Virus record (IMG/VR): IMGVR_UViG_3300046779_000519
Coordinates: 113-64,112 of that record
DNA length: 64,000 nt
Source: a virus
Lineage: Duplodnaviria > Caudoviricetes
Direction: 5' to 3' (one strand)
A program made the position numbers and the translations under genes. Below, piece by piece: positions 3,890-17,545 of this stretch; the first letter of the stretch is position 1, and each line of letters starts with the position of its first letter. The notes beneath the pieces were generated by a model, which saw nothing but the letters and a program-made list of their open reading frames with translations, ran no database searches and was not told the origin of the DNA.

Positions 3890-6800
3890 ATGAGATTCTT
3901 AACAGAAATACTGGCTAAAGCTGGGATAACAAGTAACTATGTCCAATTAGATACGCTTGCAGCTACTCCTGGTGGAGCACCTGGGCGTATTGTTTGGAAT
4001 GACGTAGATGGAACGTTGGAGTTCCAAATGAAGGGTGGCAATGTTACTCAGCAAATCGGTCAAGAGTTACCTGTTCTAGTTAAACACGCTGACAATACAG
4101 GACTTACTAACGGTAAGGTTGTTTACCAGTTTAGCTCTGACGGAGCTAACGTTACAGTAAAATACGCTTCAGCATCTTCTGAGACTACAGCTTCAAAGAC
4201 CTTTGGGGTAATGACAGAAGATGCCACTGGTGGCGCGAAAGGCTTCTGTACGACCTTTGGTTATGTAAGAAATATTAACACCTCAGCGTTAACGGAAGGC
4301 GCAATGATTTGGCTTTCTGAGACTCCAGGTGAGATGACAACTACTCGTCCGACGCAACCCGCTCACGGAGTTGTCGTAGGTCGTTGTATTCGTCAACACG
4401 CTACTGAGGGAGTTATCTTTGTGTCTATTCAGAATGGTTTTGAGTTAGATGAATTACACGATGTATTAATCACATCAAAGGCTAACAACGACTTTATTGT
4501 TTACGAGTCAGCAACTAACCTTTGGAAGAATAAGACTATCTCAGCGGTATTAGGTTATACGCCTGCTAATGGGGCAAATTATCTTGCCTTAACAGGTGGT
4601 ACGCTTACAGGGGACTTGACTTTGTCAGGAGTTAACCCTCGCTTATACTTTACAGATACAGATAATAACCCAGACTACTTCATCTCTAACACAGATGGGA
4701 CGTTTACGGTATATGACGTAACAAACTCAGTTGGTAGATTTAAGATTTATTCGACGGGGAATGCGGAGTTTACGGGAGCTTTAAGCGGTACGAGTGCGAC
4801 GTTTAGTGGAATTATAGCAGCTAATTCGCAAACTACTGCTACTAATGGCTCTATTAATGTAGAGTCAGCTGACCCTGCAATTAGATTTAGGGTAACAGGC
4901 GGTACCGCTAACAGCAGAATCTATGAATGGAGAGCAGTAGCTGCAGGTGGGGTAAATGATATTATGCAATTGAGGCTTTGGAATGATGCTCAAAGTTCTG
5001 CCTCTACATTATTTACGGTATCTCCTACAGGCGCAGCTATATTTACTGCTAACGTTACAGCAACGCAGGGAATTTTTAGTGGTAGCGATGCTGAACGAGT
5101 TAAGATGACAAGAACTTCAATAGGCTCTTGGTTATTAGCAATTAGCGGAAGTAATAGATTTTCTATTTATGATGTAGCTGGTGACGCGGAAAGAATATCA
5201 ATTACTTCTTCTGGCGTCATAGGGGTTGGCAATATGAATCCATTTGGAGGTGCATCTGGAATCAACGGAATGCATATAACTTCATTAAGCGCAAATAGTG
5301 CATTCTTTAGAATAAATAACGCATCGTATACTGGATTTGACTTAATACAGGGCAATGACGGTGTTGGTTATTTATGGCTAAGAGATAATCAAATGATTCA
5401 AATCGGTACTAATAATACCGAAAGGATTAGAGTAACGAACGCTGGTAGGATTATTGTAAATAACTCTGTAGCTAATGACTCTGGTGACAGAAACTTAACT
5501 ATTCAAGGCTCTTTATCTGCAACCAATAATGATGTAGCTTCCATAAACTTAACGCAAGTATGGAACGGGGTTTCATACCCAGCTATATTGGCAGTTCAGC
5601 AAGATTTATCTTATGGTAATGCGTCAGGAATATTTGTATTAAAAACATCTTATTGGAATGGAAGTAGCGTTGTAACTAGTGAGCGATTAAGAGTTGCTGC
5701 TTTGGGGCAACTAAAATTATCTGCCTACACCTCCTCCACATCCTTCTCAGGCACCGCCGCAGGATACCTTGCGTTTGATTCTTCTGGGAATGTTATTACG
5801 GTAGCGGGGGTTGCGGCGACGGATAATACTAAGTTGCCTCTTACAGGAGGAGCTTTAACTGGTCCATTGTCTATTACTGGCAACGGCTCATATTTAGGAG
5901 ACTGGGGATACAAGACTCTTGAGTTAAATGATACCAGCGGATATGCAGGTATATTCTTTAAGAACGGGAATAATATATGGATTAATCGAAGAAATGGCGC
6001 CGATAACGCTATGGACTGGGCTTATTCAACAAATGCTTCTGCTCAAGGAACTGGCACATTTGTTCAAAAAATGCGCCTTGCATCAGATGAGTGGTGGGTG
6101 AGCACTTATCCTAATTATAAGATGCGTGTTGTAGGAGGTGATGTATTGGAAGCTCTTAATGGAACAAGTGCAACAACTTTATACTTACAGTATCATTCTA
6201 ATACAGGAGGACAGGTAAATATATCAGCTGGTAAATTTATATTCTACAGTAATGGAAATTTATCTGTTACTGGAGCTATTTCTATGGCTACCTCTGGAAC
6301 GAGCTATATCCGTATGGGTCAGTTCCCTCAAAGCGTATCTAACTCAGGAGAAGCTTGGATAGGTAGAGCAGCTGATAGAAGTACTGGCTCAATGACTGTT
6401 CAGCTAGGAGGAAGCTCAAATGGCTCTTTCTTTGAGGTTGTTGATTATGGTTGGACTACTGTTACGTTAAAGGTTGGGATGAACGATTTCTCTTATAAGG
6501 GGAATGCTGTTATTCACGCAGGAAATATTGGCTCTCAGTCTGTAAGTAATGCTGCTACTCTTGGAGGATATAGTCCTAATCAAACAGGTGGAGCCTATAC
6601 TATTGTTCAGCGTGATAGTAATGGATATATTCAAAACTCTTATTTTTATACGTCAGGTGGCGGTTCTGAAAGAGGAACAGGTATAAGTTATGTAGCAGGA
6701 TTTAATAGTTCTGACTATTACATTAGAAGTTATACGCTTCAAGGATTAGCTTCTGCTATGAGTGGAGTTAGTATGAATATTAATGGAAATGCTTCTACTG

Positions 6801-8278
6801 CTAGTGGAGCTAATGGAAATTTTTATATTGATGATAATTATGGTAACACAATAGTAGGTGTATACACATCTACTAGATACCAAGGAGTATTTGCGATGGG
6901 AGATGCTTATAAACTCCCTGCAGATGGTTCATCCACTGGCTCCTTATATGGTTTAGCTTGGTCTCACCCTAATGCTGGGGGCGTTGCTAGTAACCTAAAT
7001 ACGCACGGTTTACTAGTAATGGAGAATGGTACATTCCTAGCGGCAATTTCAGGGTCAATTAGAGCAAGAGATGATGTTCGTGCTCCTGCTATTTATGATT
7101 CAGGTTCTCGTGTTGCTATTTCTCGTGGCGAAGGTAGAAATTATGTTGACTACTCTCGTTATGTTTATAACAATGGCGCATACTCAGGTTCAGGTTGGAA
7201 TGAGCCATCTGACTTAGGTGTTAGATATGCAAACTCTGCAGGAAGCTCTACTAGTACCGTCTATATGAACACTCAATTCCAGGGCAGCGGCTCTGTTAAT
7301 ACAAGCGAAGGCAGGTGTATGTCATTAAGGACGGACTCTGGAGCAGGTGCTGCAGTTAACTATGCGCCAGTATTACATATGGCTGCATCAGATACAATGT
7401 GGCAAGCGCAAGGAACTTACGGCTCATCAGGTAACGGCACTCTATATTTTAGACAAGGATATGCTGGTAACTGGGGAAACTGGTTGACAATGATTTCTTC
7501 TGCTAACATTGGGTCTCAATCTGTCAACTACGCATCTACATCTGGTACAGCATCTAACTTATCGGGCTTTGACAAAACTAACCCATCATTTGGTGCAGTT
7601 TATGCATCTAACTGGTTTAGAGCACAAGGGGACTGTGGTTTATATTCTCAGGATTATGGCGGGCACATAAGAAGAGCTTTAACTGGCTCATATGGCAACT
7701 GGGAAACATTTGGATACAACAGAAATGGATGGTCTGGTTTTTTAAATTTGAATAACTATAATTTGAATTTAATGATGAACTCATCTGGAGACCATGGGTT
7801 CTATATAGAAAATGGTCCTGGATGGACATTTTTCTTTAATAGAGGTAATCATTGCGCAGGTATTGGTACAGATAACACCTGGTCTGGTGATGGATTAAGA
7901 GTAGTAAAGCAGATATCTGCAGAGTATGGATTTACAACTTGGTCTGACAGAAGGGCAAAGGAAAATATCACCAACATTACTAGCGCATTAGACAAGGTGC
8001 TGCAAATGCGTGGAGTATACTTCAATTATATTAAAGATGATGCAAAGGTAAAAAGAGTAGGATTTATAGCGCAAGAGCTTCAGGAAGTATTACCAGAAGT
8101 AGTTAATTATGCGGATGAAATAGATGAGTATAATGTTAATTATGGTCAGATAGTTTCCGTATTGACAGAGGCGACAAAAGAGCAAAACGATATGATTGTA
8201 AGCCAAGCTACAAGAATTGAGCAATTAGAATTATTAGTACAACAATTAATAAATAGCAATAATGGCATTTCAAATTAA
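3890..8278 (+). CDS. Long tail fibre with C-terminal intramolecular chaperone (peptidase S74-type) domain
   Basis: 1462 aa, Gly/Ser/Asn-rich repeats; C-terminus WSDRRAKENI...LRGVYF...GFIAQELQEVLPEVV...VNYGQIVSVLTEA followed by coiled coil. Confidence 0.88.
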   Translation: MRFLTEILAKAGITSNYVQLDTLAATPGGAPGRIVWNDVDGTLEFQMKGGNVTQQIGQELPVLVKHADNTGLTNGKVVYQFSSDGANVTVKYASASSETTASKTFGVMTEDATGGAKGFCTTFGYVRNINTSALTEGAMIWLSETPGEMTTTRPTQPAHGVVVGRCIRQHATEGVIFVSIQNGFELDELHDVLITSKANNDFIVYESATNLWKNKTISAVLGYTPANGANYLALTGGTLTGDLTLSGVNPRLYFTDTDNNPDYFISNTDGTFTVYDVTNSVGRFKIYSTGNAEFTGALSGTSATFSGIIAANSQTTATNGSINVESADPAIRFRVTGGTANSRIYEWRAVAAGGVNDIMQLRLWNDAQSSASTLFTVSPTGAAIFTANVTATQGIFSGSDAERVKMTRTSIGSWLLAISGSNRFSIYDVAGDAERISITSSGVIGVGNMNPFGGASGINGMHITSLSANSAFFRINNASYTGFDLIQGNDGVGYLWLRDNQMIQIGTNNTERIRVTNAGRIIVNNSVANDSGDRNLTIQGSLSATNNDVASINLTQVWNGVSYPAILAVQQDLSYGNASGIFVLKTSYWNGSSVVTSERLRVAALGQLKLSAYTSSTSFSGTAAGYLAFDSSGNVITVAGVAATDNTKLPLTGGALTGPLSITGNGSYLGDWGYKTLELNDTSGYAGIFFKNGNNIWINRRNGADNAMDWAYSTNASAQGTGTFVQKMRLASDEWWVSTYPNYKMRVVGGDVLEALNGTSATTLYLQYHSNTGGQVNISAGKFIFYSNGNLSVTGAISMATSGTSYIRMGQFPQSVSNSGEAWIGRAADRSTGSMTVQLGGSSNGSFFEVVDYGWTTVTLKVGMNDFSYKGNAVIHAGNIGSQSVSNAATLGGYSPNQTGGAYTIVQRDSNGYIQNSYFYTSGGGSERGTGISYVAGFNSSDYYIRSYTLQGLASAMSGVSMNINGNASTASGANGNFYIDDNYGNTIVGVYTSTRYQGVFAMGDAYKLPADGSSTGSLYGLAWSHPNAGGVASNLNTHGLLVMENGTFLAAISGSIRARDDVRAPAIYDSGSRVAISRGEGRNYVDYSRYVYNNGAYSGSGWNEPSDLGVRYANSAGSSTSTVYMNTQFQGSGSVNTSEGRCMSLRTDSGAGAAVNYAPVLHMAASDTMWQAQGTYGSSGNGTLYFRQGYAGNWGNWLTMISSANIGSQSVNYASTSGTASNLSGFDKTNPSFGAVYASNWFRAQGDCGLYSQDYGGHIRRALTGSYGNWETFGYNRNGWSGFLNLNNYNLNLMMNSSGDHGFYIENGPGWTFFFNRGNHCAGIGTDNTWSGDGLRVVKQISAEYGFTTWSDRRAKENITNITSALDKVLQMRGVYFNYIKDDAKVKRVGFIAQELQEVLPEVVNYADEIDEYNVNYGQIVSVLTEATKEQNDMIVSQATRIEQLELLVQQLINSNNGISN

Positions 8279-9759: not shown

Positions 9760-10041
9760 ATGGAAAATCCTATTGAGCAAATAAAGGCTTATTTATTCCC
9801 GACGGCAATAAGTATTATGTCGCTAATGATTTGGCACGATGTCAATGAGATGAAAGCGGACATAAAGCAACTAATAGTTCAATCAAATGTAGACAAGACT
9901 AGAATAGATAACTTAGAAAGACAAATCTACAAGACAGGATTACGCGTACCAAACCCACCTTTTAAGCTACCACTTCAGGTAGATATGCGTCAAGTAGTGG
10001 CAATCAGACCAGACGAAGACGAAGAAAAATACTACCTGTAA
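9760..10041 (+). CDS. Lysis-cassette membrane protein (holin/antiholin candidate)
   Basis: N-terminal TM helix followed by coiled coil; upstream of the endolysin. Confidence 0.45.
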   Translation: MENPIEQIKAYLFPTAISIMSLMIWHDVNEMKADIKQLIVQSNVDKTRIDNLERQIYKTGLRVPNPPFKLPLQVDMRQVVAIRPDEDEEKYYL

Positions 10042-10075: not shown

Positions 10076-10366
10076 ATGTCATTTATCAAGCAGTTGTTCT
10101 CTGACGACAACGACATCAACGAGAAGTCTGTACTAGGATTCTTATCGTTCTTAGTTCTTTTTGTTTACGGATTTGTAGACATCGTTACTGGCTACTTTGG
10201 TCAGCAGTTCGTTATCGAACCTATCATCTTAGAAGTATTCGCTGCATTAACAGCTGGTTGTTTTGGTATCTCATCTTATGAGAAAGTTCAGAACCGCAAG
10301 ACTGATGCTGAACGCGAAAAGAACTTACCTGGCGGATTAGACCCGCTTCCAGAAGATGAAGGTTAA
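10076..10366 (+). CDS. Putative holin
   Basis: 96 aa, two hydrophobic helices, charged C-terminus, within the lysis cassette. Confidence 0.6.
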   Translation: MSFIKQLFSDDNDINEKSVLGFLSFLVLFVYGFVDIVTGYFGQQFVIEPIILEVFAALTAGCFGISSYEKVQNRKTDAEREKNLPGGLDPLPEDEG

Positions 10367-10961
10367 TATAGCCCTTTTTATCTGTTGTATCATTGCTATC
10401 TTCTATGCTTATACTAAGCATATGCAAGCAGGCGAGGCACGTCCTAATGATACCTTAGTTGTACACGATACGTCTTGGCAAAAGTACGACTCTATCGTAG
10501 TTAGAAAGGTTCCTGTACCTTATGAGGTTAAAGTACCTGTTGAATCTAAGCCTGAGATGTTGCCTGATACAAACTATGCTAAGTTAAAGGAGCAGTATAT
10601 GGCGTTACTTCAGCTGTATATGAATAAGTTAGTTTACTCAGATACAATCAGAGTCGGCACCTACGGATACATTGCTGTATTGGATACAATCAACGAGAAC
10701 AAATTAAAGTATAGAAGAACGCGTGATAATTTCAACATTCCAATCGTTAAGGAAACTAAGACAATTACTACATACTCACCACCTACACGCAATGTATTCG
10801 TTGGAGGTGGCGTCTTGGTTAACAATGCTCTTGGAGTAAGAGGTGCTGAAGCGGGACTATTATTGAAAACAAAAAAAGACCAACTGTATAACATTAAAGC
10901 TTCTGTCGACATCGATGGAAATGTTATGTACGGTGCTGGTTATTACTATAAACTAAAATAA
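10356..10961 (+). CDS. Putative spanin-like lysis protein
   Basis: N-terminal TM anchor, Pro/Val-rich VHDT...VPVPYEVKVPV segment, beta-stranded C-terminus ending GAGYYYKLK; between holin and endolysin. Confidence 0.45.
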   Translation: MKVNIALFICCIIAIFYAYTKHMQAGEARPNDTLVVHDTSWQKYDSIVVRKVPVPYEVKVPVESKPEMLPDTNYAKLKEQYMALLQLYMNKLVYSDTIRVGTYGYIAVLDTINENKLKYRRTRDNFNIPIVKETKTITTYSPPTRNVFVGGGVLVNNALGVRGAEAGLLLKTKKDQLYNIKASVDIDGNVMYGAGYYYKLK

Positions 10962-10962
10962 G

Positions 10963-11139
10963 ATGAATTTAATCAAATGGATTAAAGCGTTGTTCACTGC
11001 AAAGAAAAAAGTAGCAGTAGCAGTTGAGAAGACTCAAGACGCTGTAGTTGAAATTAAAGATGCTGTAGCAGAAGCTATCGCAGAAGTAGCTGTACCTGCT
11101 CCTAAGAAGAAAAAGTACTACGCAAAGAAGAAGAAGTAA
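10963..11139 (+). CDS. 58-aa Ala/Lys-rich small protein (not in ORF track)
   Basis: MNLIKWIKALFTAKKKVAVAVEK...PAPKKKKYYAKKKK*; fills the gap exactly between flanking genes. Confidence 0.6.
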   Translation: MNLIKWIKALFTAKKKVAVAVEKTQDAVVEIKDAVAEAIAEVAVPAPKKKKYYAKKKK

Positions 11140-11140
11140 T

Positions 11141-11986
11141 ATGCTATTAAGACTAGGTTCATTTGGGGATGACGTCACTAAGCTTCAAGTTAAGCTTGGC
11201 GTAGACCCTATTGGCAAGTTTGGTCCTAAGACAGAGGCAGCTGTTAAAGGTTGGCAATCCGCTCACGGTTTAACACCTGATGGTATTGTAGGAGATTCAA
11301 CGTGGGCGAAGATGTTTGCTCCAGTGGCAGAAGTACCCGCGCCACAACCAATCGTCGCTCCTGCGCCAACTACGACGCCTACATTCAAGCTAGATGCTCT
11401 TAAAGGACACGTTCCTCAAGCTGTTATTGATGCTATACCTGATACAGCAGCTCGTTTTGGAATCACAACTCCATTACGCCTTGCTCACTTCTTAGCACAG
11501 GCAGCTCACGAATCTGGTGGATTTACGGCGACTACGGAAAACTTGAATTACCGAGCTAAAGGATTATGTGGAATCTTCCGCAAGTATTTTCCTAGCGTAA
11601 CTGTTGCTTTGCAATACGAGCGTAAGCCAGAGAAGATTGCTAATAAGGTTTATGCTAACCGTATGGGTAATGGTAACGAAGCATCAGGAGACGGATGGAA
11701 GCACCGTGGGCGTGGCTATATCCAATTAACTGGAAAGGATAATTACAAAGCATTTGATGCCACAGTTCCTGAAGACATTATGGCTAACCCTGATTTAGTA
11801 GCTACTAAGTATGCATTAGCCTCCGCAGCGTTCTTCTTTAAGAAGAATGGCTTATGGGCTATCTGTGACAGGGGTGCGGATAACGCAACTGTTACTGCTG
11901 TAACTAAGAGAGTAAACGGTGGAACTATTGGTTTAGCAGACCGTCAAAAACATTTTAACGAGTTCTATCATTTATTAGCAGCATAA
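11141..11986 (+). CDS. Endolysin: peptidoglycan-binding domain + GH19 (chitinase-class) muramidase
   Basis: LRLGSFGDDVTKLQ...DGIVGDSTW PG-binding repeat; RLAHFLAQAAHESGGF, ENLNY, RGRGYIQLTGKDNY, VTKRVNGG GH19 motifs. Confidence 0.92.
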   Translation: MLLRLGSFGDDVTKLQVKLGVDPIGKFGPKTEAAVKGWQSAHGLTPDGIVGDSTWAKMFAPVAEVPAPQPIVAPAPTTTPTFKLDALKGHVPQAVIDAIPDTAARFGITTPLRLAHFLAQAAHESGGFTATTENLNYRAKGLCGIFRKYFPSVTVALQYERKPEKIANKVYANRMGNGNEASGDGWKHRGRGYIQLTGKDNYKAFDATVPEDIMANPDLVATKYALASAAFFFKKNGLWAICDRGADNATVTAVTKRVNGGTIGLADRQKHFNEFYHLLAA

Positions 11987-12111
11987 TGGCAAAGCAAAAA
12001 CCATCATCGGAGAATAAAAAGGTTGTATTTGGTGTACGTCGTAACGGCAAGCACAAGAAGACAAATGGTCCAAAAGAAAGTCCGTCGAAGAAATCACGCG
12101 GGCAGGGGTAG
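11986..12111 (+). CDS. 41-aa basic protein (not in ORF track)
   Basis: MAKQKPSSENKKVVFGVRRNGKHKKTNGPKESPSKKSRGQG*; ATG overlaps endolysin stop. Confidence 0.6.
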   Translation: MAKQKPSSENKKVVFGVRRNGKHKKTNGPKESPSKKSRGQG

Positions 12112-12113
12112 AT

Positions 12114-12584
12114 ATGAAATTAATGTTAAGCATATCGCTCATATGGATAGGTGTTTATTTCTTAAAACCACAAGAAATAACCGTAGCATCTGTACAGAAT
12201 AATGTACAGATTGGAGCACTTGCTGGTAACAGAAACTTAGAGTTTGGCGTTAAAAACATCCTAGAGGAGTTCTTGCAAGAAGCAGGACACGAGGTGTCAG
12301 AAGATGCGCCAACGCAGATTAAGGTAGAGATTCTTTATTTAGATGTACTTAAAACTCAGTCGAATCTATCCGTATTCCATAGCAATAAGGAAGCGGTAGT
12401 TATTCGTCTTAGAGGAAAGTTAATACAAGATGGTAAGGTTAAGAAGACTGTCATCGTAGAAGAGCAAGCAGAAGAGGTTTCAATGGCTATGCTTTTAATT
12501 GACGAGGGCGGAAAGTTTAATCAAGCATCCCTAAGTTCCGCAATAAAGAAGTCTTGTAACACCTTAATCACTAAGCTATTATAA
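12114..12584 (+). CDS. Secreted protein, CsgG/LptE-like alpha-beta fold candidate
   Basis: Signal peptide; NLEFGVKNILEEFLQEAG helix parallels RVGLGVTNIVIEFLEET of the CsgG-like gene at 15252; C-terminal helix LSSAIKKSCNTLI parallels IGTTTKKALENAA. Confidence 0.5.
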   Translation: MKLMLSISLIWIGVYFLKPQEITVASVQNNVQIGALAGNRNLEFGVKNILEEFLQEAGHEVSEDAPTQIKVEILYLDVLKTQSNLSVFHSNKEAVVIRLRGKLIQDGKVKKTVIVEEQAEEVSMAMLLIDEGGKFNQASLSSAIKKSCNTLITKLL

Positions 12585-14359
12585 TGAAAAAACTCCTTCT
12601 AATTGTCCAGTTTTTTGTGCTATTAACTGGACATTCTTACGCTCAAACAGTCAAATTAAGTTTGCAAAACGCAAACACTAATACCAATGTTAACGGCACT
12701 GTTATCAACAAGGGCGACGAGTTCATTGTAACCGTGATGGCAGACGGGAATAACAATACCTCCACTCGTGCGCTATACTTCGACTTTGAATATCAGAACA
12801 CCGCATTTGAATTAATGACTGTTAACCACACAGGCACAATGGGCAATGGCGGTATTATTCCTTATGGCTCACAAATCTCAATGAGCTACCAAAACTACCC
12901 AGGTTATAGCTATAACAAGACATCCTTAAACACTACTGATAACGGTAATACCAACTACAATTACTGCCAATACAATTACACACAAGGAGGACCTAAATCA
13001 ATTTTGCGTGTATATCTTAACTGGTCTATTGCACAAGGTGGGCTAGGAACAGATAGATTACTTGTTCTTAAGTTCAAACTAAAGACAGACGCCCCAGGAT
13101 ACGCTTGGAACCCTATTGTAATGAACTTTGCGGCAGCATTTAACCAAGACGGCACATCTGGTTCAACGTTAATGACAACGCCTCTTACAAGCGTTATTAT
13201 GCTAGACCCTGTAGCTACTAGATACATTAATCCTACGATTGATTACAACGCAAATGTGGACATTCAATCGCTTCATCGTATTGCATTTACAGATAGTGCC
13301 GCTAACACAACATACCTAGTAGACGCTTTATCTGACGGCACAATTCCTGTAGACCAGACTAGATTCCAGCCTAATACGGTTTACCACGTTAGGACGTTAT
13401 TTAATATGGATAGCATTAAAGAGTTATCCGCGGCAGCAGTTACAGTCTCTGACTACACAACTGCGCAGGCTGAGTTTGTTACACAGAACTTAGATGGAAC
13501 GTTTAAGAATCAAAACATTATCACAGGAGCTGGATACTACGCATCAGATGTCAACTACAATAAGAAGCTAGACGGAGGAGACTTAGTGAGATTATTTGCG
13601 CAGGTAACGGGAGTAGAGAACTTGGTTACGCTGCCAGCTAACTATGCAGCAGGCACAGATATGTATATGAGTGTTCCTACGTTCACAGACTCTACGTTCA
13701 ATAAGATGACAGCAGCAAACTGGAAGGATGTAGATAAGAATTATGTACGCTTTAAGACAGCTGAGATTGGGAAGAATCTTCCTCTAAAGCTTAGATTCTT
13801 AATCCCAGGCGACATTAACAGAAGCCATAGCTCACAGGTTGTTATTAACAATGCTATAGCTACCAACGCAGTGCCTAGCTTAAAGAAGAGCTTAGCTACA
13901 ACGCAAACTGCTCACTTATTGATTAACACTCCTCAGTTTATCCCATCTATTGATGTTACAATTCAAGGTAAAACTGTAACAACTAACAGCTTTGAGATAC
14001 CTGTTAAGGTAAACACTAAAGAAAGTAATATTGCTGCCTTGCAATTTGAGTTCGTTTATGACCCGACAAAGGTTAAATTTGTAGCGCTGTTAAATGAGCT
14101 ACCTAATACTTGGTATACGTTTGTGGATAATAAGGACGGTAGAGTAAGATTTGGAGCCTTAGATAAAGAACTAAAGACTCCTGTAACGGGTGAGCTTACT
14201 CCATTTAAGTTAAAGTTTGAGACTATTGGAAACGGGGCAGACATTAACACAGTGATTCGCGTGTCTCCTAATATGGATGCAGCGTCTAAGTCAGGATATC
14301 AGCTAGGTATTAATTTAAACCTAGAGGTTATAAAATTAACGGGAATAAATAACTTTTAG
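12584..14359 (+). CDS. Secreted cohesin-dockerin-cohesin domain protein
   Basis: Signal peptide ending SYA-Q; N-terminal KGDEFIVTV...LYFDFEYQNTAFEL and C-terminal FEIPVKVN...IAALQFEFVYDPTKVKFV...GRVRFG cohesin patterns; central DVNYNKKLDGGDLVRL and LIPGDINRS dockerin-like motifs. Confidence 0.7.
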   Translation: MKKLLLIVQFFVLLTGHSYAQTVKLSLQNANTNTNVNGTVINKGDEFIVTVMADGNNNTSTRALYFDFEYQNTAFELMTVNHTGTMGNGGIIPYGSQISMSYQNYPGYSYNKTSLNTTDNGNTNYNYCQYNYTQGGPKSILRVYLNWSIAQGGLGTDRLLVLKFKLKTDAPGYAWNPIVMNFAAAFNQDGTSGSTLMTTPLTSVIMLDPVATRYINPTIDYNANVDIQSLHRIAFTDSAANTTYLVDALSDGTIPVDQTRFQPNTVYHVRTLFNMDSIKELSAAAVTVSDYTTAQAEFVTQNLDGTFKNQNIITGAGYYASDVNYNKKLDGGDLVRLFAQVTGVENLVTLPANYAAGTDMYMSVPTFTDSTFNKMTAANWKDVDKNYVRFKTAEIGKNLPLKLRFLIPGDINRSHSSQVVINNAIATNAVPSLKKSLATTQTAHLLINTPQFIPSIDVTIQGKTVTTNSFEIPVKVNTKESNIAALQFEFVYDPTKVKFVALLNELPNTWYTFVDNKDGRVRFGALDKELKTPVTGELTPFKLKFETIGNGADINTVIRVSPNMDAASKSGYQLGINLNLEVIKLTGINNF

Positions 14360-14364
14360 GTTAA

Positions 14365-14718
14365 ATGAAAAAGACCATAGCATTTTTGTTGATAGTGATG
14401 CTGGCAGCTTGCCAAGACATTGAGCAATTAGAAAAAGAAGTTAGCCTAGGAGAAATGCCTGTGGCTACAGATATTAAGAGCTTATCAGTACAAGGGAAAC
14501 AGGCTACCATTGTAGCTAATACAACTGTAGGGGCTAAATACTCCATACAAATCCAATCATTCGGGAAAACCGAACCGTTGAAGACAGTTGGGTTTACGGC
14601 TACATCGGTGGCGACTATCAAGACTATTCAATTAGATACATTGTCTCGTGGGTTATATGACTTAACTTTGACGGACGTATCGGGCGTAACAATTAAAAAA
14701 CCTTTAATCATTAATTAA
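14365..14718 (+). CDS. Lipoprotein resembling a stand-alone T9SS type-A sorting domain
   Basis: Lipobox LAA-C16; C-terminus IQLDTLSRGLYDLTLTDVSGVTIKKPLIIN resembles the T9SS CTD pattern (GxY...KK-hydrophobic). Confidence 0.55.
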   Translation: MKKTIAFLLIVMLAACQDIEQLEKEVSLGEMPVATDIKSLSVQGKQATIVANTTVGAKYSIQIQSFGKTEPLKTVGFTATSVATIKTIQLDTLSRGLYDLTLTDVSGVTIKKPLIIN

Positions 14719-14719
14719 G

Positions 14720-15025
14720 ATGGCAGAAGAACAAGAAGGCGGAGGCTCACTTAAGAGCATCCTTATCGGATTAGCAAGTACAATCGCACTAGGTGTAGGT
14801 GGATTTGTGACTAAACAATTAACAGGCGAAGAAGAAGCAGCGGCTGCACCAGCGGCAGTAACAGCACCAGCTCCAGTAATTAACATTACGACTAATAACA
14901 CGCAACAGCAAAAGCAATCTGCATCTGCAGGCGGCACAAGAGTTGTTGAGCGGGTTGTAGAGAAACCAGCGGCACCTAAGAAAAAGACTGAGAAAGAAGC
15001 TCTACAAGAAGAGCCGAAGTGGTAA
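14720..15025 (+). CDS. Single-TM protein with Ala/Pro-rich linker
   Basis: 101 aa; hydrophobic ILIGLASTIALGVGGFV then low-complexity and basic tail. Confidence 0.6.
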   Translation: MAEEQEGGGSLKSILIGLASTIALGVGGFVTKQLTGEEEAAAAPAAVTAPAPVINITTNNTQQQKQSASAGGTRVVERVVEKPAAPKKKTEKEALQEEPKW

Positions 15026-15251
15026 TTAATGTTGATTATATTATACATTAACCCCAGTTTTGGGCATTAATGTTGAATATATTCAACAAAAATCCAAACC
15101 AATATTGGCTGGTAAATGATAATTATCCAAACCAATGGTTTGCATTACTAATATACACTATTGACGAAACTTGTAATTTTTGACAAGTTCTGATAATAAG
15201 GGAAACTACAATTTACAAATATGTAAATTATTGTAAAATACAGTTAACGTT

Positions 15252-15956
15252 ATGAAGAAAATATTAATCCTATTACTAGCTTCATTTGGAGCAACCGCAC
15301 AAATAGCAACTGTTAAAACAGAAGGCTACACAGCTTCATTTGAGAAGAAGATTAATATCGATTCATTAATGGACTACGAAGGTCCGAAGATTCCTATTCA
15401 GCTATTGTCTTTAGGTATCAATGAGGAGGTATACGCTGCGTATCCTGAGCTAAAAGATAAGCGCGTGGGTCTTGGTGTCACTAACATTGTTATCGAGTTC
15501 CTAGAGGAAACTAATCGCTTCACGTTTACCGAAGACAAAGCTGAGATTAAGAACAGGATGGTTAAGCAGTTCCAAGCCTCACAAGCTGGAATCTCTGAGA
15601 ATAAGCTAGACGGCAGAGGTAAAATCAAGTTAGCTCAGTACTTTGTCTACATTGAATGCTACGACTTCTCAGTTAGCGAGGATGAGTCTATCTCTATGAA
15701 AGACGGCGTCAAGCAGACAGTAGTTACGCGCCTAGGTTTACAGGTTAAGTTTGTTAACGCTGAGACAGGTGAGTTCTTTACAGGCTCAGGAATGGGCGAA
15801 GCTAAGACAACTCGTGAGGCTACATTAATGAACGACGGCAACTTTGCGGAGATTAAATTTAACCAGTCTACTATTGGTACAACCACAAAGAAAGCGTTAG
15901 AGAATGCTGCCGCAAAAATCATCGTTAGAATGATTAAGAAGAAAATCTTCAAGTAA
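15252..15956 (+). CDS. CsgG/HfaB-family outer-membrane channel-like protein
   Basis: Signal peptide ending ATA-Q; IEFLEETNRFTFTE, AQYFVYIECYDFS, LGLQVKFVNAETGE match the CsgG family pattern. Confidence 0.72.
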   Translation: MKKILILLLASFGATAQIATVKTEGYTASFEKKINIDSLMDYEGPKIPIQLLSLGINEEVYAAYPELKDKRVGLGVTNIVIEFLEETNRFTFTEDKAEIKNRMVKQFQASQAGISENKLDGRGKIKLAQYFVYIECYDFSVSEDESISMKDGVKQTVVTRLGLQVKFVNAETGEFFTGSGMGEAKTTREATLMNDGNFAEIKFNQSTIGTTTKKALENAAAKIIVRMIKKKIFK

Positions 15957-17245
15957 TGAAACTGATATATGCACTCCTATTTATCATAGCCCCACTATGT
16001 GCATATTCACAAGTTTTAACCCAAACCTTTGTTGACCCTTGCTCTGGGAAAGTTACTGTCGTTACCGTACCTTTGGCGAACGGCAAGACTACTGTAGTCT
16101 ATAGAGGGCAATACAGAGTAGTAACGTCTAACGATATTACTACAGGTGCGCTACAGGCTTGGATTAACGATTTAACCATTAACTTCCCTTGCCCGCAAGC
16201 TACTGTCGCTGTAACACAAACCGTAGCAAATGCAGTACAACAAGCAGTAGCGGCAGCGGCATCTGCAGCAACAGCTCAAGCTACGTCAGCTGCAACTTCA
16301 GCGGCTACATCTGCGGCAACAAGTGCTGCGTCATCGGCAGCTAGTTCAGCGGCTTCTTCTGCAGCATCATCTGCAGCATCGTCTTCTGCGGCTAGTAGCA
16401 CACCAGCTCCATCAACAACATCTAGCAGTACACCTAAAGCAGAAACAAAGTCAGAAACCAAGTCAGAGTCACAAAGCGAATCCAAAAGCGAGAGCAAGTC
16501 AGAGTCAAAGAGTGAGGAAAAGTCTGAGTCTAAATCCGAATCGAAAAGTGAAAGCAAGAAAGAATCCAAATCAGAAAAGAAGAGCGAAGCCAAGAAATCG
16601 GCTGCTGTGGCGAATCCGATTATATATAGCTCGGACTTTACAGTCGCTCCATCAAGTGATGTTATTTCTATTATCGCAAGCGTAGGAATGAGTCAAAGTT
16701 CACTAATGGGCAACTCTTCGTGGGGGATATCTACTATGATATGGTCTACGCTTAATCAGTTTGCTCTTAGTGGCAGATACACTATGTTAAACTTCGAAGG
16801 AGGTAAGATGCAGTCCATTTCTAACTTCGGTATCACAGGCGTCTATTTAGGGGGCACAGCGCTTGGATTTGTTACCGCTGCACATATCCAACCTTTAGGG
16901 AAATACGGTACGTCAGGAGCCAACTATACGCTTAGTTTTGCAGGCGCAGATGCGGGGATGAATATTAGCAATAACATAATGTTGTTTTACACAATCCCTG
17001 TTAAGGTTAGTAAAAGGTTAACGGTATCTCCAGATATATACTTCTCAGGTAGCGCAACAGGTTATTTAACGGCACAACAGAAGTTTGTTACATCTAATGA
17101 CGTTGGAGTTCTTACTGGGGCATCGTTTGACATTGCGCTTACTAAACGCTTCAAGTTCAACTTTGCCTTGAAGACAGGGTTTAACAGCAATCCAATTATT
17201 CCCCAAAGTTATTTGGGTATGATTGGGACTAAGATAAATTTATAG
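15956..17245 (+). CDS. Outer-membrane beta-barrel protein with Ala/Ser and SESK low-complexity stalk
   Basis: Signal peptide ending AYS-Q; ~120-aa A/S/T then (S/K/E)-repeat region; ~210-aa alternating hydrophobic strands ending MIGTKINL. Confidence 0.65.
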   Translation: MKLIYALLFIIAPLCAYSQVLTQTFVDPCSGKVTVVTVPLANGKTTVVYRGQYRVVTSNDITTGALQAWINDLTINFPCPQATVAVTQTVANAVQQAVAAAASAATAQATSAATSAATSAATSAASSAASSAASSAASSAASSSAASSTPAPSTTSSSTPKAETKSETKSESQSESKSESKSESKSEEKSESKSESKSESKKESKSEKKSEAKKSAAVANPIIYSSDFTVAPSSDVISIIASVGMSQSSLMGNSSWGISTMIWSTLNQFALSGRYTMLNFEGGKMQSISNFGITGVYLGGTALGFVTAAHIQPLGKYGTSGANYTLSFAGADAGMNISNNIMLFYTIPVKVSKRLTVSPDIYFSGSATGYLTAQQKFVTSNDVGVLTGASFDIALTKRFKFNFALKTGFNSNPIIPQSYLGMIGTKINL

Positions 17246-17273: not shown

Positions 17274-17477
17274 ATGATTCAATTTATGATTCCTTTTGAT
17301 TCCATCAATGAAATGGAGTCTGAGCACATTAAGTTCTTGGGCATCCAAGAAACTAAATCAAAGATGTTGTTGGATATGTTAGACGCTATTGCAGAAATTC
17401 CAGTAGAGTCAAAATTAGAACTAGAGACTAATATATTAGATGCGTTATCAGAAATTGTATCTAAAGTAAGAAAATAG
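17274..17477 (+). CDS. Hypothetical protein
   Basis: 67 aa with AACCAAAC leader and downstream terminator. Confidence 0.5.
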   Translation: MIQFMIPFDSINEMESEHIKFLGIQETKSKMLLDMLDAIAEIPVESKLELETNILDALSEIVSKVRK

Positions 17478-17510
17478 CGAGTACGTTTTATTAATGGAAA
17501 ATGAATACTA

Positions 17511-17545
17511 ATGCCTTGGCTCTCTGAGCTGGGGCATTGTCTTTT
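17511..17545 (+). terminator. Intrinsic terminator
   Basis: ATGCCTTGGCTC-tct-GAGCTGGGGCAT then T-rich. Confidence 0.7.

What the first reader, a model, noticed from the sequence alone, without database searches (positions are those of the whole stretch)
12114..17245. Phage-encoded secreted/outer-membrane module inside the late operon (best candidate for an undescribed system)
Seen: six co-oriented genes between the endolysin and tail genes, all with export signals. Four have Sec signal peptides with Gln at or next to the cleavage site, one has a lipobox, one has a TM anchor. They are a CsgG-like protein, a cohesin-dockerin-cohesin protein, a T9SS-CTD-like lipoprotein, a TM protein, a second CsgG-family protein and a stalked beta-barrel. 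Established: CsgG forms an outer-membrane secretion pore, and csgG/csgF homologs are reported in some marine phages. I see no CsgA/CsgB curlin repeats here. Inference: a non-curli surface-assembly apparatus that exports or anchors a cohesin-dockerin polymer on infected cells, for example for receptor masking, superinfection exclusion, aggregation or particle attachment.
Basis: partly seen in the sequence, partly recalled or inferred. Interest (0 to 1): 0.87.

Follow-up and report, generated by a model that had tools for sequence, protein, structure and literature searches.

The report
Phage envelope cassette in spanin's place
A complete 64-kb Flavobacterium-type phage carries, right after its cell-wall-cutting enzyme, six exported proteins that sit where near-identical phages carry spanin-like outer-membrane-breaking genes, so this may be an undescribed way for phages to open, or re-dress, the host envelope.

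Summary
The six co-oriented genes are real and all carry export or membrane signals. The fold calls differ in strength:
- g5 has a CsgG fold (VIA Z 13.8), but no lipid anchor and no membrane-type hairpins.
- g6 is a stalked 12-stranded outer-membrane barrel (Z about 21).
- g2 has a Pfam cohesin. It has no profile-detectable dockerin.
- g1 is only a remote CsgG-superfamily relative.
- The T9SS-CTD likeness of g3 is weak.

The cassette recurs widely. g1, g2 and g6 accompany g5 in 50 of 50 well-flanked viral loci. The holin-like gene and the GH19 endolysin lie adjacent to it or interleaved with it.

The new evidence is positional. Phages 82-85% identical in DNA on both flanks carry three non-homologous spanin-like genes exactly in place of g1-g6. 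Sibling phages carry holins, an M15 endolysin and a unimolecular-spanin-like gene in the same slot. In this complete genome g3 is the only lipoprotein candidate.

My best reading (0.45) is an envelope complex that serves the outer-membrane step of lysis. That rival is favoured by T9SS tags and lectins in divergent versions and by phage immuto.

I found no paper describing this cassette. The scan has noted it on other DNA several times.

The parts
9760..10041 (+). h93: 93-aa protein with one hydrophobic segment and a coiled-coil-like tail. First gene of the lysis block.
   Evidence: Homologues lie upstream of the holin-like gene in 24 related loci. No Pfam or PHROG hit.
10076..10366 (+). h96: 96-aa holin-like protein with two TM segments.
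   Evidence: TM segments at about 18 and 45. It lies next to the endolysin in most loci and between g4 and g5 in L051-L059. The holin role is inferred from topology and position only.
10356..10961 (+). g0a: 201-aa protein with an N-terminal TM anchor and a periplasmic domain. Conserved partner of the endolysin.
   Evidence: It is kept in the cassette-less L141.
10963..11139 (+). g0b: 58-aa protein with a Lys-rich C-terminus.
   Evidence: Present in 8 related loci. No family hit.
11141..11986 (+). Endolysin (PG_binding_1 plus GH19 domains).
   Evidence: Pfam 48.5 and 33 bits. PHROG 181 endolysin, E 2.4e-71.
11986..12111 (+). k42: conserved 41-aa Lys/Arg-rich ORF between the endolysin and g1.
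   Evidence: Translation. Homologues sit at the same position in nearly all related loci, including cassette-less ones.
12114..12584 (+). g1: small exported protein, a remote CsgG/LpoB-superfamily relative.
   Evidence: hhalign against the g5 family: 79%, E 1.6e-5, 121 columns. Weak Pfam Lipoprotein_16 hit, E 3.6e-4. Present in 50 of 50 well-flanked loci.
12584..14359 (+). g2: 591-aa secreted protein. It has a C-terminal cohesin, a cohesin-like N-terminal module and a middle region with an EF-hand-like Ca loop.
14365..14718 (+). g3: 117-aa lipoprotein with a beta-rich domain. It is the only lipoprotein candidate in the genome.
   Evidence: Lipobox LAAC; the Cys is invariant in 26 relatives. 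It is the only candidate on a coding strand. Weak Por_Secre_tail hits.
14720..15025 (+). g4: 101-aa inner-membrane tether. It has an acidic N-terminus, one TM segment, an Ala/Pro-rich and charged tail, and a C-terminal Trp.
   Evidence: The immuto gp016 homologue also ends in Trp.
15026..15251 (.). 226-bp gap with inverted repeats. In relatives this junction holds x198, h96 or insertions.
15252..15956 (+). g5: 234-aa secreted CsgG-fold protein. It is the most conserved gene of the block.
   Evidence: AF2 pLDDT 80.5. CsgG Z 13.8, rmsd 2.4 over 167 residues. 18 of 40 family members hit Pfam CsgG. Median identity 88% against 76% for the endolysin.
15956..17245 (+). g6: signal peptide, 60-aa domain with two invariant Cys, Ala/Ser and Lys/Glu/Ser stalk, and a 12-stranded outer-membrane barrel. 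Its start overlaps the g5 stop.
   Evidence: NalP Z 21.8; KdgM Z 21.0, rmsd 1.7 over 166 residues; FapF Z 20.0.
17274..17477 (+). g7: 67-aa acidic protein without an export signal. It is specific to this phage lineage and is not part of the cassette.
17509..17539 (+). Strong terminator-like hairpin (14 pairs) that closes the transcription unit before the virion genes.

Best explanation
The six genes are the envelope arm of this phage's lysis module.

Before lysis their products are exported:
- g4 sits in the inner membrane and reaches out through an Ala/Pro-rich tail.
- g1 and g5, both CsgG-fold proteins, lie in the periplasm. g5 is probably a ring under the outer membrane, as in PelC, LptE or CsgG.
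- g2, the cohesin scaffold, is secreted.
- g3 is a lipoprotein.
- g6 inserts a 12-stranded barrel with a long stalk into the outer membrane.

Once the holin-like protein and the GH19 endolysin have removed the wall, this assembly does the job that spanins do in other phages. It breaks or opens the outer membrane so that virions can leave.

Shown here: the folds, the export signals, co-inheritance, interleaving with the lysis genes, and an exact swap against spanin-like genes.

Inferred: that the parts assemble, and that they act on the outer membrane at lysis.
For: 1. Exact non-homologous swap. L141 and L139 are 82-85% identical in DNA to cassette-bearing L012 and L026 on both flanks. The flanks are h96, g0a, endolysin, k42 and the start of g1 on one side, and the tail fibre on the other. 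In place of g1-g6 they carry a 47-aa g1 remnant and three genes: a TM plus coiled-coil protein, a lipoprotein whose start overlaps it (ATGA), and a protein with a signal peptide and a C-terminal TM. These three show no homology to cassette proteins.

2. L184 and L185 have the order endolysin, then a relative of the same TM protein (50% identity), then a 113-aa lipoprotein, then k42.

3. Sibling phages L104-L106 and L109 are 75% identical in a virion protein. In the same slot they carry two holin-like genes, an M15 endolysin and a gene with an N-terminal lipobox and a C-terminal TM, which is the unimolecular-spanin topology. They have no cassette.

4. This complete genome has direct terminal repeats and is rated 100% complete. 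Its only lipoprotein candidate is g3. It has no homologue of the swapped genes.

5. Lysis genes are interleaved with cassette genes in other lineages: g4-h96-g5 in L051-L059 and g5-endolysin-g6 in L069-L079. The endolysin lies within the fetched flanks in 41 of 50 well-flanked loci.

6. The topology covers the inner membrane, the periplasm and the outer membrane.

7. Published precedent: phage CsgG-like genes have been proposed, on synteny alone, to act in lysis (PMC9004378). About 13% of phages of Gram-negative hosts have no recognisable spanin (PMC6139136).
Against: - Phage immuto carries the core (g2-like, g4, g5, g6, g1) without g3. There it lies 6 kb from an unrelated endolysin, among DNA-metabolism genes.
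- Fourteen endolysin relatives with at least 6 kb on both sides lack the cassette. For 12 of them my scan found no same-strand lipoprotein within 4 kb upstream and 5 kb downstream, so the pattern 'cassette or spanin' is not clean.
- Five of 24 g2 relatives end in a true T9SS sorting domain and one carries a C-type lectin. That fits surface display better than membrane breaking.
- Five kilobases and six proteins is far more than any known outer-membrane disruptor needs.
- The swapped genes are called spanin-like from topology and position only. PHROGs gives them no name.
- g3 is missing from many cassettes.
- There are no expression or phenotype data.
Confidence: 0.45

Rival explanations
1. Surface re-dressing. 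The cassette places a cohesin scaffold, and in other phages lectins, on the infected cell's surface or outer membrane. This would mask receptors, exclude superinfecting phages, stop progeny sticking to debris, or aggregate cells. The CsgG-fold proteins and the barrel serve as anchor or export parts.
For: - g2 is a cohesin protein.
- Five of 24 g2 relatives carry a T9SS sorting domain (best E 6.4e-10) and one carries Lectin_C.
- Immuto's block includes an annotated C-type lectin and a secreted nuclease, and it is not next to the endolysin.
- The g5 fold also matches TraT, a decameric surface-exclusion lipoprotein, at Z 8.6.
- The g6 barrel matches autotransporter translocators, whose N-terminal parts are displayed outside the cell.
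- Late expression would suit masking of debris.
Against: - The window's g2 has no T9SS domain and no detectable dockerin.
- This reading does not explain the exact swap with spanin-like genes.
- It does not explain why this genome has no other spanin candidate.
- It does not explain why holin and endolysin genes sit inside the cassette in several lineages.
- Known exclusion genes of this type usually sit by receptor-binding or early genes (from my own knowledge of T5 llp and T4 imm/sp).
Confidence: 0.3
2. Outer-membrane channel for timing or secretion. The g5 ring and the g6 barrel form a gated conduit that lets a molecule out or in late in infection, or sets lysis timing. This is what has been proposed for CsgGF of pelagimyophages and phage Melnitz.
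For: - The g5 stop overlaps the g6 start, and the pair is adjacent in most loci.
- Proteins of this fold pair with barrels in PelBC and LptDE.
- g6 resembles the small 12-stranded channels KdgM and NanC and the amyloid exporter FapF.
- Published proposals: PMC9004378 and PMC7029224.
Against: - No substrate gene is evident.
- There is no CsgA, CsgB, CsgE or CsgF.
- g5 is not lipidated and its long hairpin tip is acidic, so a CsgG-type pore is unlikely.
- A 12-stranded barrel is a narrow pore.
- This reading leaves g1, g2, g3 and g4 unexplained.
Confidence: 0.1
3. Cargo at a recombination hot-spot. The site after the endolysin simply collects alternative envelope-acting accessory genes. The cassette and the three-gene set are then unrelated in function, and the outer membrane is breached by something else, for example g0a, g0b or k42.
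For: - Homing-endonuclease-like genes are inserted in or near the cassette in relatives.
- k42, g0a and h96 are kept in both cassette-bearing and cassette-less phages.
- Many relatives have neither the cassette nor a visible spanin.
Against: - g5 is more conserved than the endolysin: median 88% against 76%, and the most conserved gene in 48 of 52 loci (the loci were chosen by g5, so this is biased).
- g1, g2, g5 and g6 are co-inherited 50 of 50 times across phages of 64 to about 160 kb.
- That is strong selection for a working unit, and the replacement genes have spanin topology.
Confidence: 0.1

Closest known systems
CsgG/CsgF 'curli-like' clusters of pelagimyophages (HTVC008M group) and Methylophilales phage Melnitz (PMC7029224, PMC9004378)
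   Same: A phage-encoded CsgG-fold protein without curlin subunits. The gene is absent from typical host genomes, the function is unknown, and a lysis role has been proposed from synteny.
   Different: Those clusters have a recognisable CsgG and CsgF and are proteobacterial in origin. Here there is no CsgF, g5 itself misses the Pfam CsgG model, it is not lipidated, and its partners are a cohesin protein, a stalked barrel, a lipoprotein and a membrane tether. The hosts are Bacteroidota.
E. coli curli channel CsgG (PDB 4uv2, 4uv3)
   Same: It is the best structural match to g5: Z 13.8, rmsd 2.4 A over 167 residues. The loop after the first strand is similar and keeps a conserved Tyr-Pro.
   Different: g5 has no lipobox. 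The tip of its long hairpin is acidic, the second hairpin region is short and of low confidence, and there are no CsgE, CsgF, CsgA or CsgB partners.
PelBC and LptDE: a lipoprotein of this fold paired with an outer-membrane barrel
   Same: g5 matches PelC (Z 10.1) and LptE (Z about 9). It is translationally coupled to a barrel protein.
   Different: The barrels differ: 12 strands here, against PelB and the 26-stranded LptD. There are no polysaccharide or LPS genes. No complex has been shown.
12-stranded barrels with N-terminal extensions: type Va autotransporter translocators (NalP, EspP) and FapF
   Same: g6 has the order signal peptide, N-terminal domain, long linker, C-terminal 12-stranded barrel. 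NalP Z 21.8 and FapF Z 20.0.
   Different: There is no confident pore helix. The N-domain is only about 60 residues, with a widely spaced invariant Cys pair. There is no sequence similarity (6-9% identity). Which side of the membrane the N-domain lies on is unknown.
Phage spanins (lambda Rz/Rz1; T1 gp11) (PMC6139136)
   Same: The position is immediately after the endolysin. The set includes an inner-membrane-anchored protein and an outer-membrane lipoprotein encoded side by side (g4, g3). In near-identical phages the cassette is exchanged for genes of spanin topology.
   Different: There are six proteins rather than one or two. The lipoprotein gene precedes the TM gene. The g4 tail is low-complexity rather than coiled coil. 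g3 is a 100-residue beta domain and is missing from many cassettes.
Cellulosome-type cohesin-dockerin assemblies
   Same: A Pfam cohesin is found in g2 and in 20 of 24 relatives. There is one Ca-loop motif with dockerin-like spacing.
   Different: No dockerin profile matches in any cassette protein of the window. There are no enzymes, and the proteins are phage-encoded and made late.

Membership tests
Curli type VIII secretion (CsgG channel) | Match to the CsgG sequence family (Pfam PF03783) | tested here: inconclusive
   g5 and g1 give no hit at E<=1. However, 18 of 40 members of the g5 family hit CsgG (best E 1.9e-17) and 8 hit LpoB. g5 is therefore a divergent member of the superfamily.
Curli type VIII secretion (CsgG channel) | CsgG fold | tested here: met
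   AF2 pLDDT 80.5. Foldseek E 2.6e-7. VIA Z 13.8 for CsgG, against at most 10.6 for the next family.
Curli type VIII secretion (CsgG channel) | N-terminal lipid anchor (lipobox Cys) | tested here: not met
   g5 has a signal-peptidase-I type signal ending A|Q, with no Cys. The same holds in nearly all of about 60 distinct phage homologues. The distant bacterial relatives do carry a GC motif (consensus).
Curli type VIII secretion (CsgG channel) | Two amphipathic transmembrane hairpins per subunit | tested here: inconclusive
   The model has one long hairpin (130-169), whose tip is Ser/Glu/Asp/Lys-rich. The second region (191-204) is short, with pLDDT about 60 (and sequence reading). No oligomer model could be run.
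Curli type VIII secretion (CsgG channel) | Partner genes csgE, csgF and curlin subunits csgA/csgB | tested here: not met
   No Pfam hit to CsgE, CsgF or curlin repeats in any of the six proteins or in the extra cassette genes x198 and x112 of relatives.
Cohesin-dockerin assembly | Cohesin module | tested here: met
   Pfam Cohesin 26.8 bits (cut-off 24.1) at g2 residues 459-538. 20 of 24 relatives hit it. The N-terminal module resembles it at 70% hhalign probability.
Cohesin-dockerin assembly | Dockerin module (paired Ca-binding loop-helix repeats) | tested here: not met
   No Dockerin_1 hit for g2 residues 270-360 at E<=10, nor in 24 relatives at E<=0.01. There is only a single DxNxNxxxDxxD loop with invariant residues.
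T9SS cargo | C-terminal sorting domain (Por_Secre_tail) | tested here: inconclusive
   The window's g2 has none. Five of 24 g2 relatives have one (best E 6.4e-10). g3 scores E 0.058, and 10 of 26 relatives hit weakly, all below the cut-off. hhalign of the g3 family against CTD-bearing g2 relatives found nothing.
Two-component spanin | Outer-membrane lipoprotein and inner-membrane N-terminal-TM protein encoded side by side near the endolysin | tested here: met
   g3 (lipobox) and g4 (N-terminal TM) are 1 nt apart and lie 2.4 kb after the endolysin. The order is the reverse of the usual i-spanin then o-spanin.
Two-component spanin | Coiled-coil periplasmic domain of the i-spanin, short Pro-rich o-spanin, C-terminal contact, and complementation of a spanin defect | not testable with these tools
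   The g4 tail is Ala/Pro/Lys/Glu-rich low complexity, and g3 is a beta domain of about 100 residues. Contact and function need experiments. g3 is absent from 14 of 50 well-flanked cassettes.
Type Va autotransporter / FapF-type barrel | C-terminal 12-stranded outer-membrane barrel preceded by a linker and an N-terminal domain | tested here: met
   Barrel at residues 222-428, pLDDT about 80. NalP Z 21.8, KdgM Z 21.0 (rmsd 1.7 over 166 residues), FapF Z 20.0.
Type Va autotransporter / FapF-type barrel | Helix or plug inside the barrel; known side of the N-terminal domain | tested here: inconclusive
   Only a 4-residue helix (216-219) precedes the barrel. The long predicted helix 80-137 has pLDDT below 50.

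The most novel reading that the evidence does not exclude
This is a new class of phage lysis machinery for Bacteroidota hosts. It is a multi-protein, envelope-spanning assembly that replaces spanins for breaching the outer membrane. Its parts are a CsgG-fold ring, a stalked 12-stranded barrel, a cohesin scaffold and an inner-membrane tether. In nature it is interchangeable with spanin-type genes.
Probability: 0.35. Interest if true: 0.9.

Novelty: categorically new. Interest (0 to 1): 0.78.

Why it matters
How phages without recognisable spanins get through the outer membrane is an open question. About 13% of phages of Gram-negative hosts are in this group (PMC6139136). Lysis in phages of Bacteroidota is almost unstudied.

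This cassette is abundant. The g5 family has 5,876 database relatives, nearly all viral. It is more conserved than the endolysin. It sits in phages from 64 kb to about 160 kb.

The natural swap against spanin-like genes in near-isogenic genomes gives a clean, testable hypothesis. A cultured carrier exists: Flavobacterium phage immuto on Flavobacterium sp. LMO8.

Even if the role turns out to be surface re-dressing, it would be the first phage system built from CsgG-fold, cohesin and autotransporter-like parts.

Tried and rejected
- Megablast of the cassette against 50,697 phage records found nothing.
- tblastn of g6 against the phage collection found nothing.
- PHROGs and NCBIfam gave no meaningful names for g1-g6. 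The weak Cor, Zot and tail-fibre hits cover signal peptides or low-complexity stretches.
- phmmer of g5 and g1 against PDB sequences found nothing.
- g1 as a single sequence against the g5 family gave 5% probability. It reached 79% only with a g1 alignment.
- The genome-contig scan with the alignment failed for lack of conserved words. The single-protein scan found only 3 MAG contigs, all phage-like.
- I looked for a g5-g6 fusion as a sign of contact. The long g5-like proteins are fused to caspase or kinase domains instead, not to barrels.
- I tested whether g3 is a split-off T9SS domain of g2. hhalign found nothing.
- I tested for homology between the swapped three genes or the u-spanin-like gene and any cassette protein. 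Only signal-peptide matches appeared.
- PHROGs gave no names for the swapped genes, k42, g0b, h93 or h96.
- I tested for a clean 'cassette or lipoprotein-spanin' pattern around endolysin relatives. It was not found.
- A search for relatives of the g6 barrel returned only close unnamed relatives of similar length.
- Contigs of distant g5 relatives were too short to show gene context.

Full report
**What is there**

The window is almost the whole of a 64,112-bp viral record with direct terminal repeats, rated 100% complete.
- g1, 12114-12584, 156 aa
- g2, 12584-14359, 591 aa
- g3, 14365-14718, 117 aa
- g4, 14720-15025, 101 aa
- g5, 15252-15956, 234 aa
- g6, 15956-17245, 429 aa

The block directly upstream looks like a lysis block. 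It holds h93, the two-TM holin-like h96, the TM-anchored g0a, the Lys-rich g0b and an endolysin with PG_binding_1 and GH19 domains. Tail-fibre genes lie further upstream. Virion structural genes follow a small gene, g7, and a strong terminator-like hairpin at 17509-17539.

**Export signals**

g2, g5 and g6 have Sec signal peptides with Gln at +1. This fits what I recall as the Bacteroidota 'Q-rule' (my own knowledge, not checked here). g3 has a lipobox whose Cys is invariant in 26 relatives. g4 has one N-terminal TM segment. The hydrophobic N-terminus of g1 is a clear signal peptide in some relatives and a TM anchor in others. Because these signals are conserved, the products go to the envelope and not into virions.

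**g5**

- g5 itself misses the Pfam CsgG model.
- A search of 1.8 billion cluster representatives found only 239 related clusters.
- In an alignment of 40 members, 18 hit Pfam CsgG and 8 hit LpoB.
- The AlphaFold model has pLDDT 80.5.
- It matches CsgG best: Foldseek E 2.6e-7 and VIA Z 13.8 at rmsd 2.4 A over 167 residues. The next families reach 10.6 at most: Cj1090c, PelC, LptE, FlgT and TraT.
- g5 has no lipid anchor. The tip of its one long hairpin is rich in Ser, Glu, Asp and Lys. The region that would form CsgG's second membrane hairpin is short and of low confidence.
- The nearest bacterial proteins carry this domain fused to Ser/Thr kinases or caspase-like peptidases, that is, as a periplasmic module.

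I therefore read g5 as a periplasmic, probably ring-forming, CsgG-fold protein and not as a curli-type pore.

**g1**

An alignment of g1 relatives matches the g5 family at 79% hhalign probability, E 1.6e-5, over 121 columns. There is also a weak Pfam Lipoprotein_16 hit. g1 is a remote relative at best.

**g6**

- The model shows a 60-residue N-terminal domain with two invariant Cys.
- A low-confidence Ala/Ser helix and a Lys/Glu/Ser stalk follow it.
- The C-terminus is an all-beta domain at 222-428 with pLDDT about 80.
- The best matches are all 12-stranded barrels: NalP translocator (Z 21.8), KdgM (Z 21.0, rmsd 1.7 A over 166 of 171 residues), EspP, FapF (Z 20.0) and NanC.
- The domain order is that of type Va autotransporters and of FapF. 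These two place the N-terminal part on opposite sides of the membrane, and I cannot tell which applies here.

**g2, g3 and g4**

- g2 has a Pfam cohesin above the cut-off, as do 20 of 24 relatives.
- Its N-terminal module resembles the cohesin at 70% probability over 50 columns.
- No dockerin profile matches, even at E<=10. One Ca-loop motif with invariant Asp and Asn residues is present.
- Five divergent g2 relatives end in a true T9SS sorting domain and one carries a C-type lectin. The window's g2 has neither.
- The likeness of g3 to a T9SS sorting domain stays below every threshold.
- g4 is an inner-membrane tether with an Ala/Pro-rich, charged tail that ends in Trp. The immuto homologue ends the same way.

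**Distribution**

- g5 has 5,876 relatives in the large protein collection.
- The language-model look-up places its close clusters wholly in viruses.
- In 80 viral contigs found through g5, 50 loci have at least 6 kb upstream and 4 kb downstream of g5. Of these 50, g1, g2 and g6 are present in all 50, g4 in 42, g3 in 36, the endolysin in 41 and h96 in 42.
- The carriers range from 64-kb phages like this one to contigs of 83, 133 and 148 kb with quite different neighbours.
- The cultured 160-kb Flavobacterium phage immuto also carries it. There the genes are annotated as hypothetical proteins, one as cohesin-domain-containing.
- Close relatives of g5 occur in only 3 contigs among 185,579 species genomes. 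All three are MAG contigs of Flavobacterium or Sediminibacterium with phage gene content.
- A g5-family profile matched 2 of 151 genomes sampled from that Flavobacterium MAG's family. One of the two was the MAG itself.
- g5 is the most conserved gene of the block, with median identity 88% against 76% for the endolysin. The loci were chosen through g5, so this comparison is biased.

**Link to lysis**

The order of lysis and cassette genes is shuffled between lineages. h96 lies between g4 and g5 in L051-L059. The endolysin lies between g5 and g6 in L069-L079. The endolysin lies divergently upstream in L081-L085.

Three comparisons are more telling.

1. Sibling phages share 75% identity in a virion protein with this one. 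In the same slot between tail fibres and virion genes they carry two holin-like genes, an M15 endolysin and a 156-aa protein with an N-terminal lipobox and a C-terminal TM. That is the topology of a unimolecular spanin. They have no cassette.

2. L141 and L139 are 82-85% identical in DNA to cassette-bearing L012 and L026.
   - On the left they match through h96, g0a, the endolysin, k42 and the first 37 codons of g1.
   - On the right they match from the tail fibre that directly follows g6.
   - In between, instead of g1-g6, they carry three genes: a 94-aa TM plus coiled-coil protein; a 123-aa lipoprotein whose start overlaps it; and a 138-aa protein with a signal peptide and a C-terminal TM that overlaps the lipoprotein gene out of frame.
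   - These three have no detectable homology to any cassette protein.

3. L184 and L185 have the order endolysin, then a relative of that TM protein, then a 113-aa lipoprotein, then k42.

In the present complete genome g3 is the only lipoprotein candidate on a coding strand. None of the swapped genes has a homologue here.

**Reading**

The cassette occupies the genetic place of spanins and is exchanged for spanin-like genes in near-isogenic phages. Its products cover the inner membrane (g4), the periplasm (g1, g5 and perhaps g2) and the outer membrane (g3, g6).

I think the most likely role, at 0.45, is the outer-membrane step of lysis. Under this reading the complex is built before the holin fires and breaks or opens the outer membrane once the wall is gone. 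Assembly and action are inferred, not shown.

**Against this reading**

- Immuto carries the core without g3, 6 kb from an unrelated endolysin.
- Fourteen well-flanked endolysin relatives have no cassette. For 12 of them I saw no same-strand lipoprotein nearby.
- T9SS tags and lectins in divergent versions speak for display on the cell surface.
- The swapped genes are 'spanin-like' by topology only.

A g5-g6 channel for timing or secretion, and unrelated cargo at a recombination hot-spot, each get 0.10.

**Comparison with what is known**

Phage-encoded CsgG and CsgF have been reported in pelagimyophages and in phage Melnitz. Uptake, 'sibling capture' and lysis regulation were proposed for them without tests (PMC7029224, PMC9004378).

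The present cassette shares only the CsgG fold with those clusters. It fails the defining features of each system I considered:
- a curli system: no lipid anchor and no partner genes;
- a cohesin-dockerin system: no dockerin;
- a canonical spanin pair: the gene order, the domain types and the frequent absence of g3.

Full-text searches for combinations of CsgG, cohesin, phage, Flavobacterium and spanin found no paper that describes it.

Earlier notes of this scan record the same block on other phage genomes and read it as envelope re-dressing. Like me, they saw that it is tangled with the lysis genes. The swap evidence is new here.

Noticed in passing
window 11986-12111 (+): A 41-aa Lys/Arg-rich ORF starts at the last base of the endolysin's stop codon. 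It is conserved at this position in nearly all related loci, including cassette-less ones, and a similar 45-aa ORF follows the u-spanin-like gene in L104. Its function is unknown. It has too few hydrophobic residues to look like the phiKT cationic 'disruptin' peptide.
   Followed up: partly
L104:7959-8429 (also L105, L106, L109): Sibling phages carry a 156-aa protein with an N-terminal lipobox and a C-terminal TM segment right after an M15 endolysin. This is a unimolecular-spanin topology in a Bacteroidota-type phage.
   Followed up: partly
L141:2033-3004 (also L139; relatives in L184, L185, L164): A three-gene set replaces the cassette: a TM plus coiled-coil protein, an overlapping lipoprotein, and an out-of-frame overlapping protein with a signal peptide and a C-terminal TM. 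It is a candidate spanin system with three parts.
   Followed up: partly
window 15026-15251: A 226-bp non-coding gap with inverted repeats lies between g4 and g5. In relatives the same junction holds the TM protein x198, the holin-like h96, or insertions of about 0.9-1.2 kb. It is a variable junction inside the cassette and may hold an internal promoter.
   Followed up: no
L004:4992-5663 and 6386-6946; L141:3110-3667: Homing-endonuclease-like genes (weak or faint NUMOD3 and I-HmuI hits; HNH-like by eye) are inserted inside or beside the cassette in relatives.
   Followed up: no
proteins P0197, P0202, P0225 (caspase fusions); P0218, P0236 (kinase fusions): Bacterial relatives of the g5 domain are fused to Peptidase_C14 caspase-like domains or to Ser/Thr kinases. 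This suggests a periplasmic sensing or anchoring role for this CsgG-fold subfamily.
   Followed up: partly
protein P0228: A 4,047-aa protein matches a roughly 50-residue stretch of g5 (residues 172-220) in 18 separate stretches. This repeat use of part of the fold is unexplained.
   Followed up: no
window 10963-11139 (+): g0b is a 58-aa protein with an amphipathic-looking N-terminal half and a poly-Lys tail. It lies just before the endolysin and matches no family.
   Followed up: no
L118-L123 and L128, g5 homologues: Some g5 homologues have a Cys in the signal peptide (LSLSC-FGQ) that my loose lipobox scan flagged. Most homologues have no Cys there. A few copies may therefore be lipidated.
   Followed up: no
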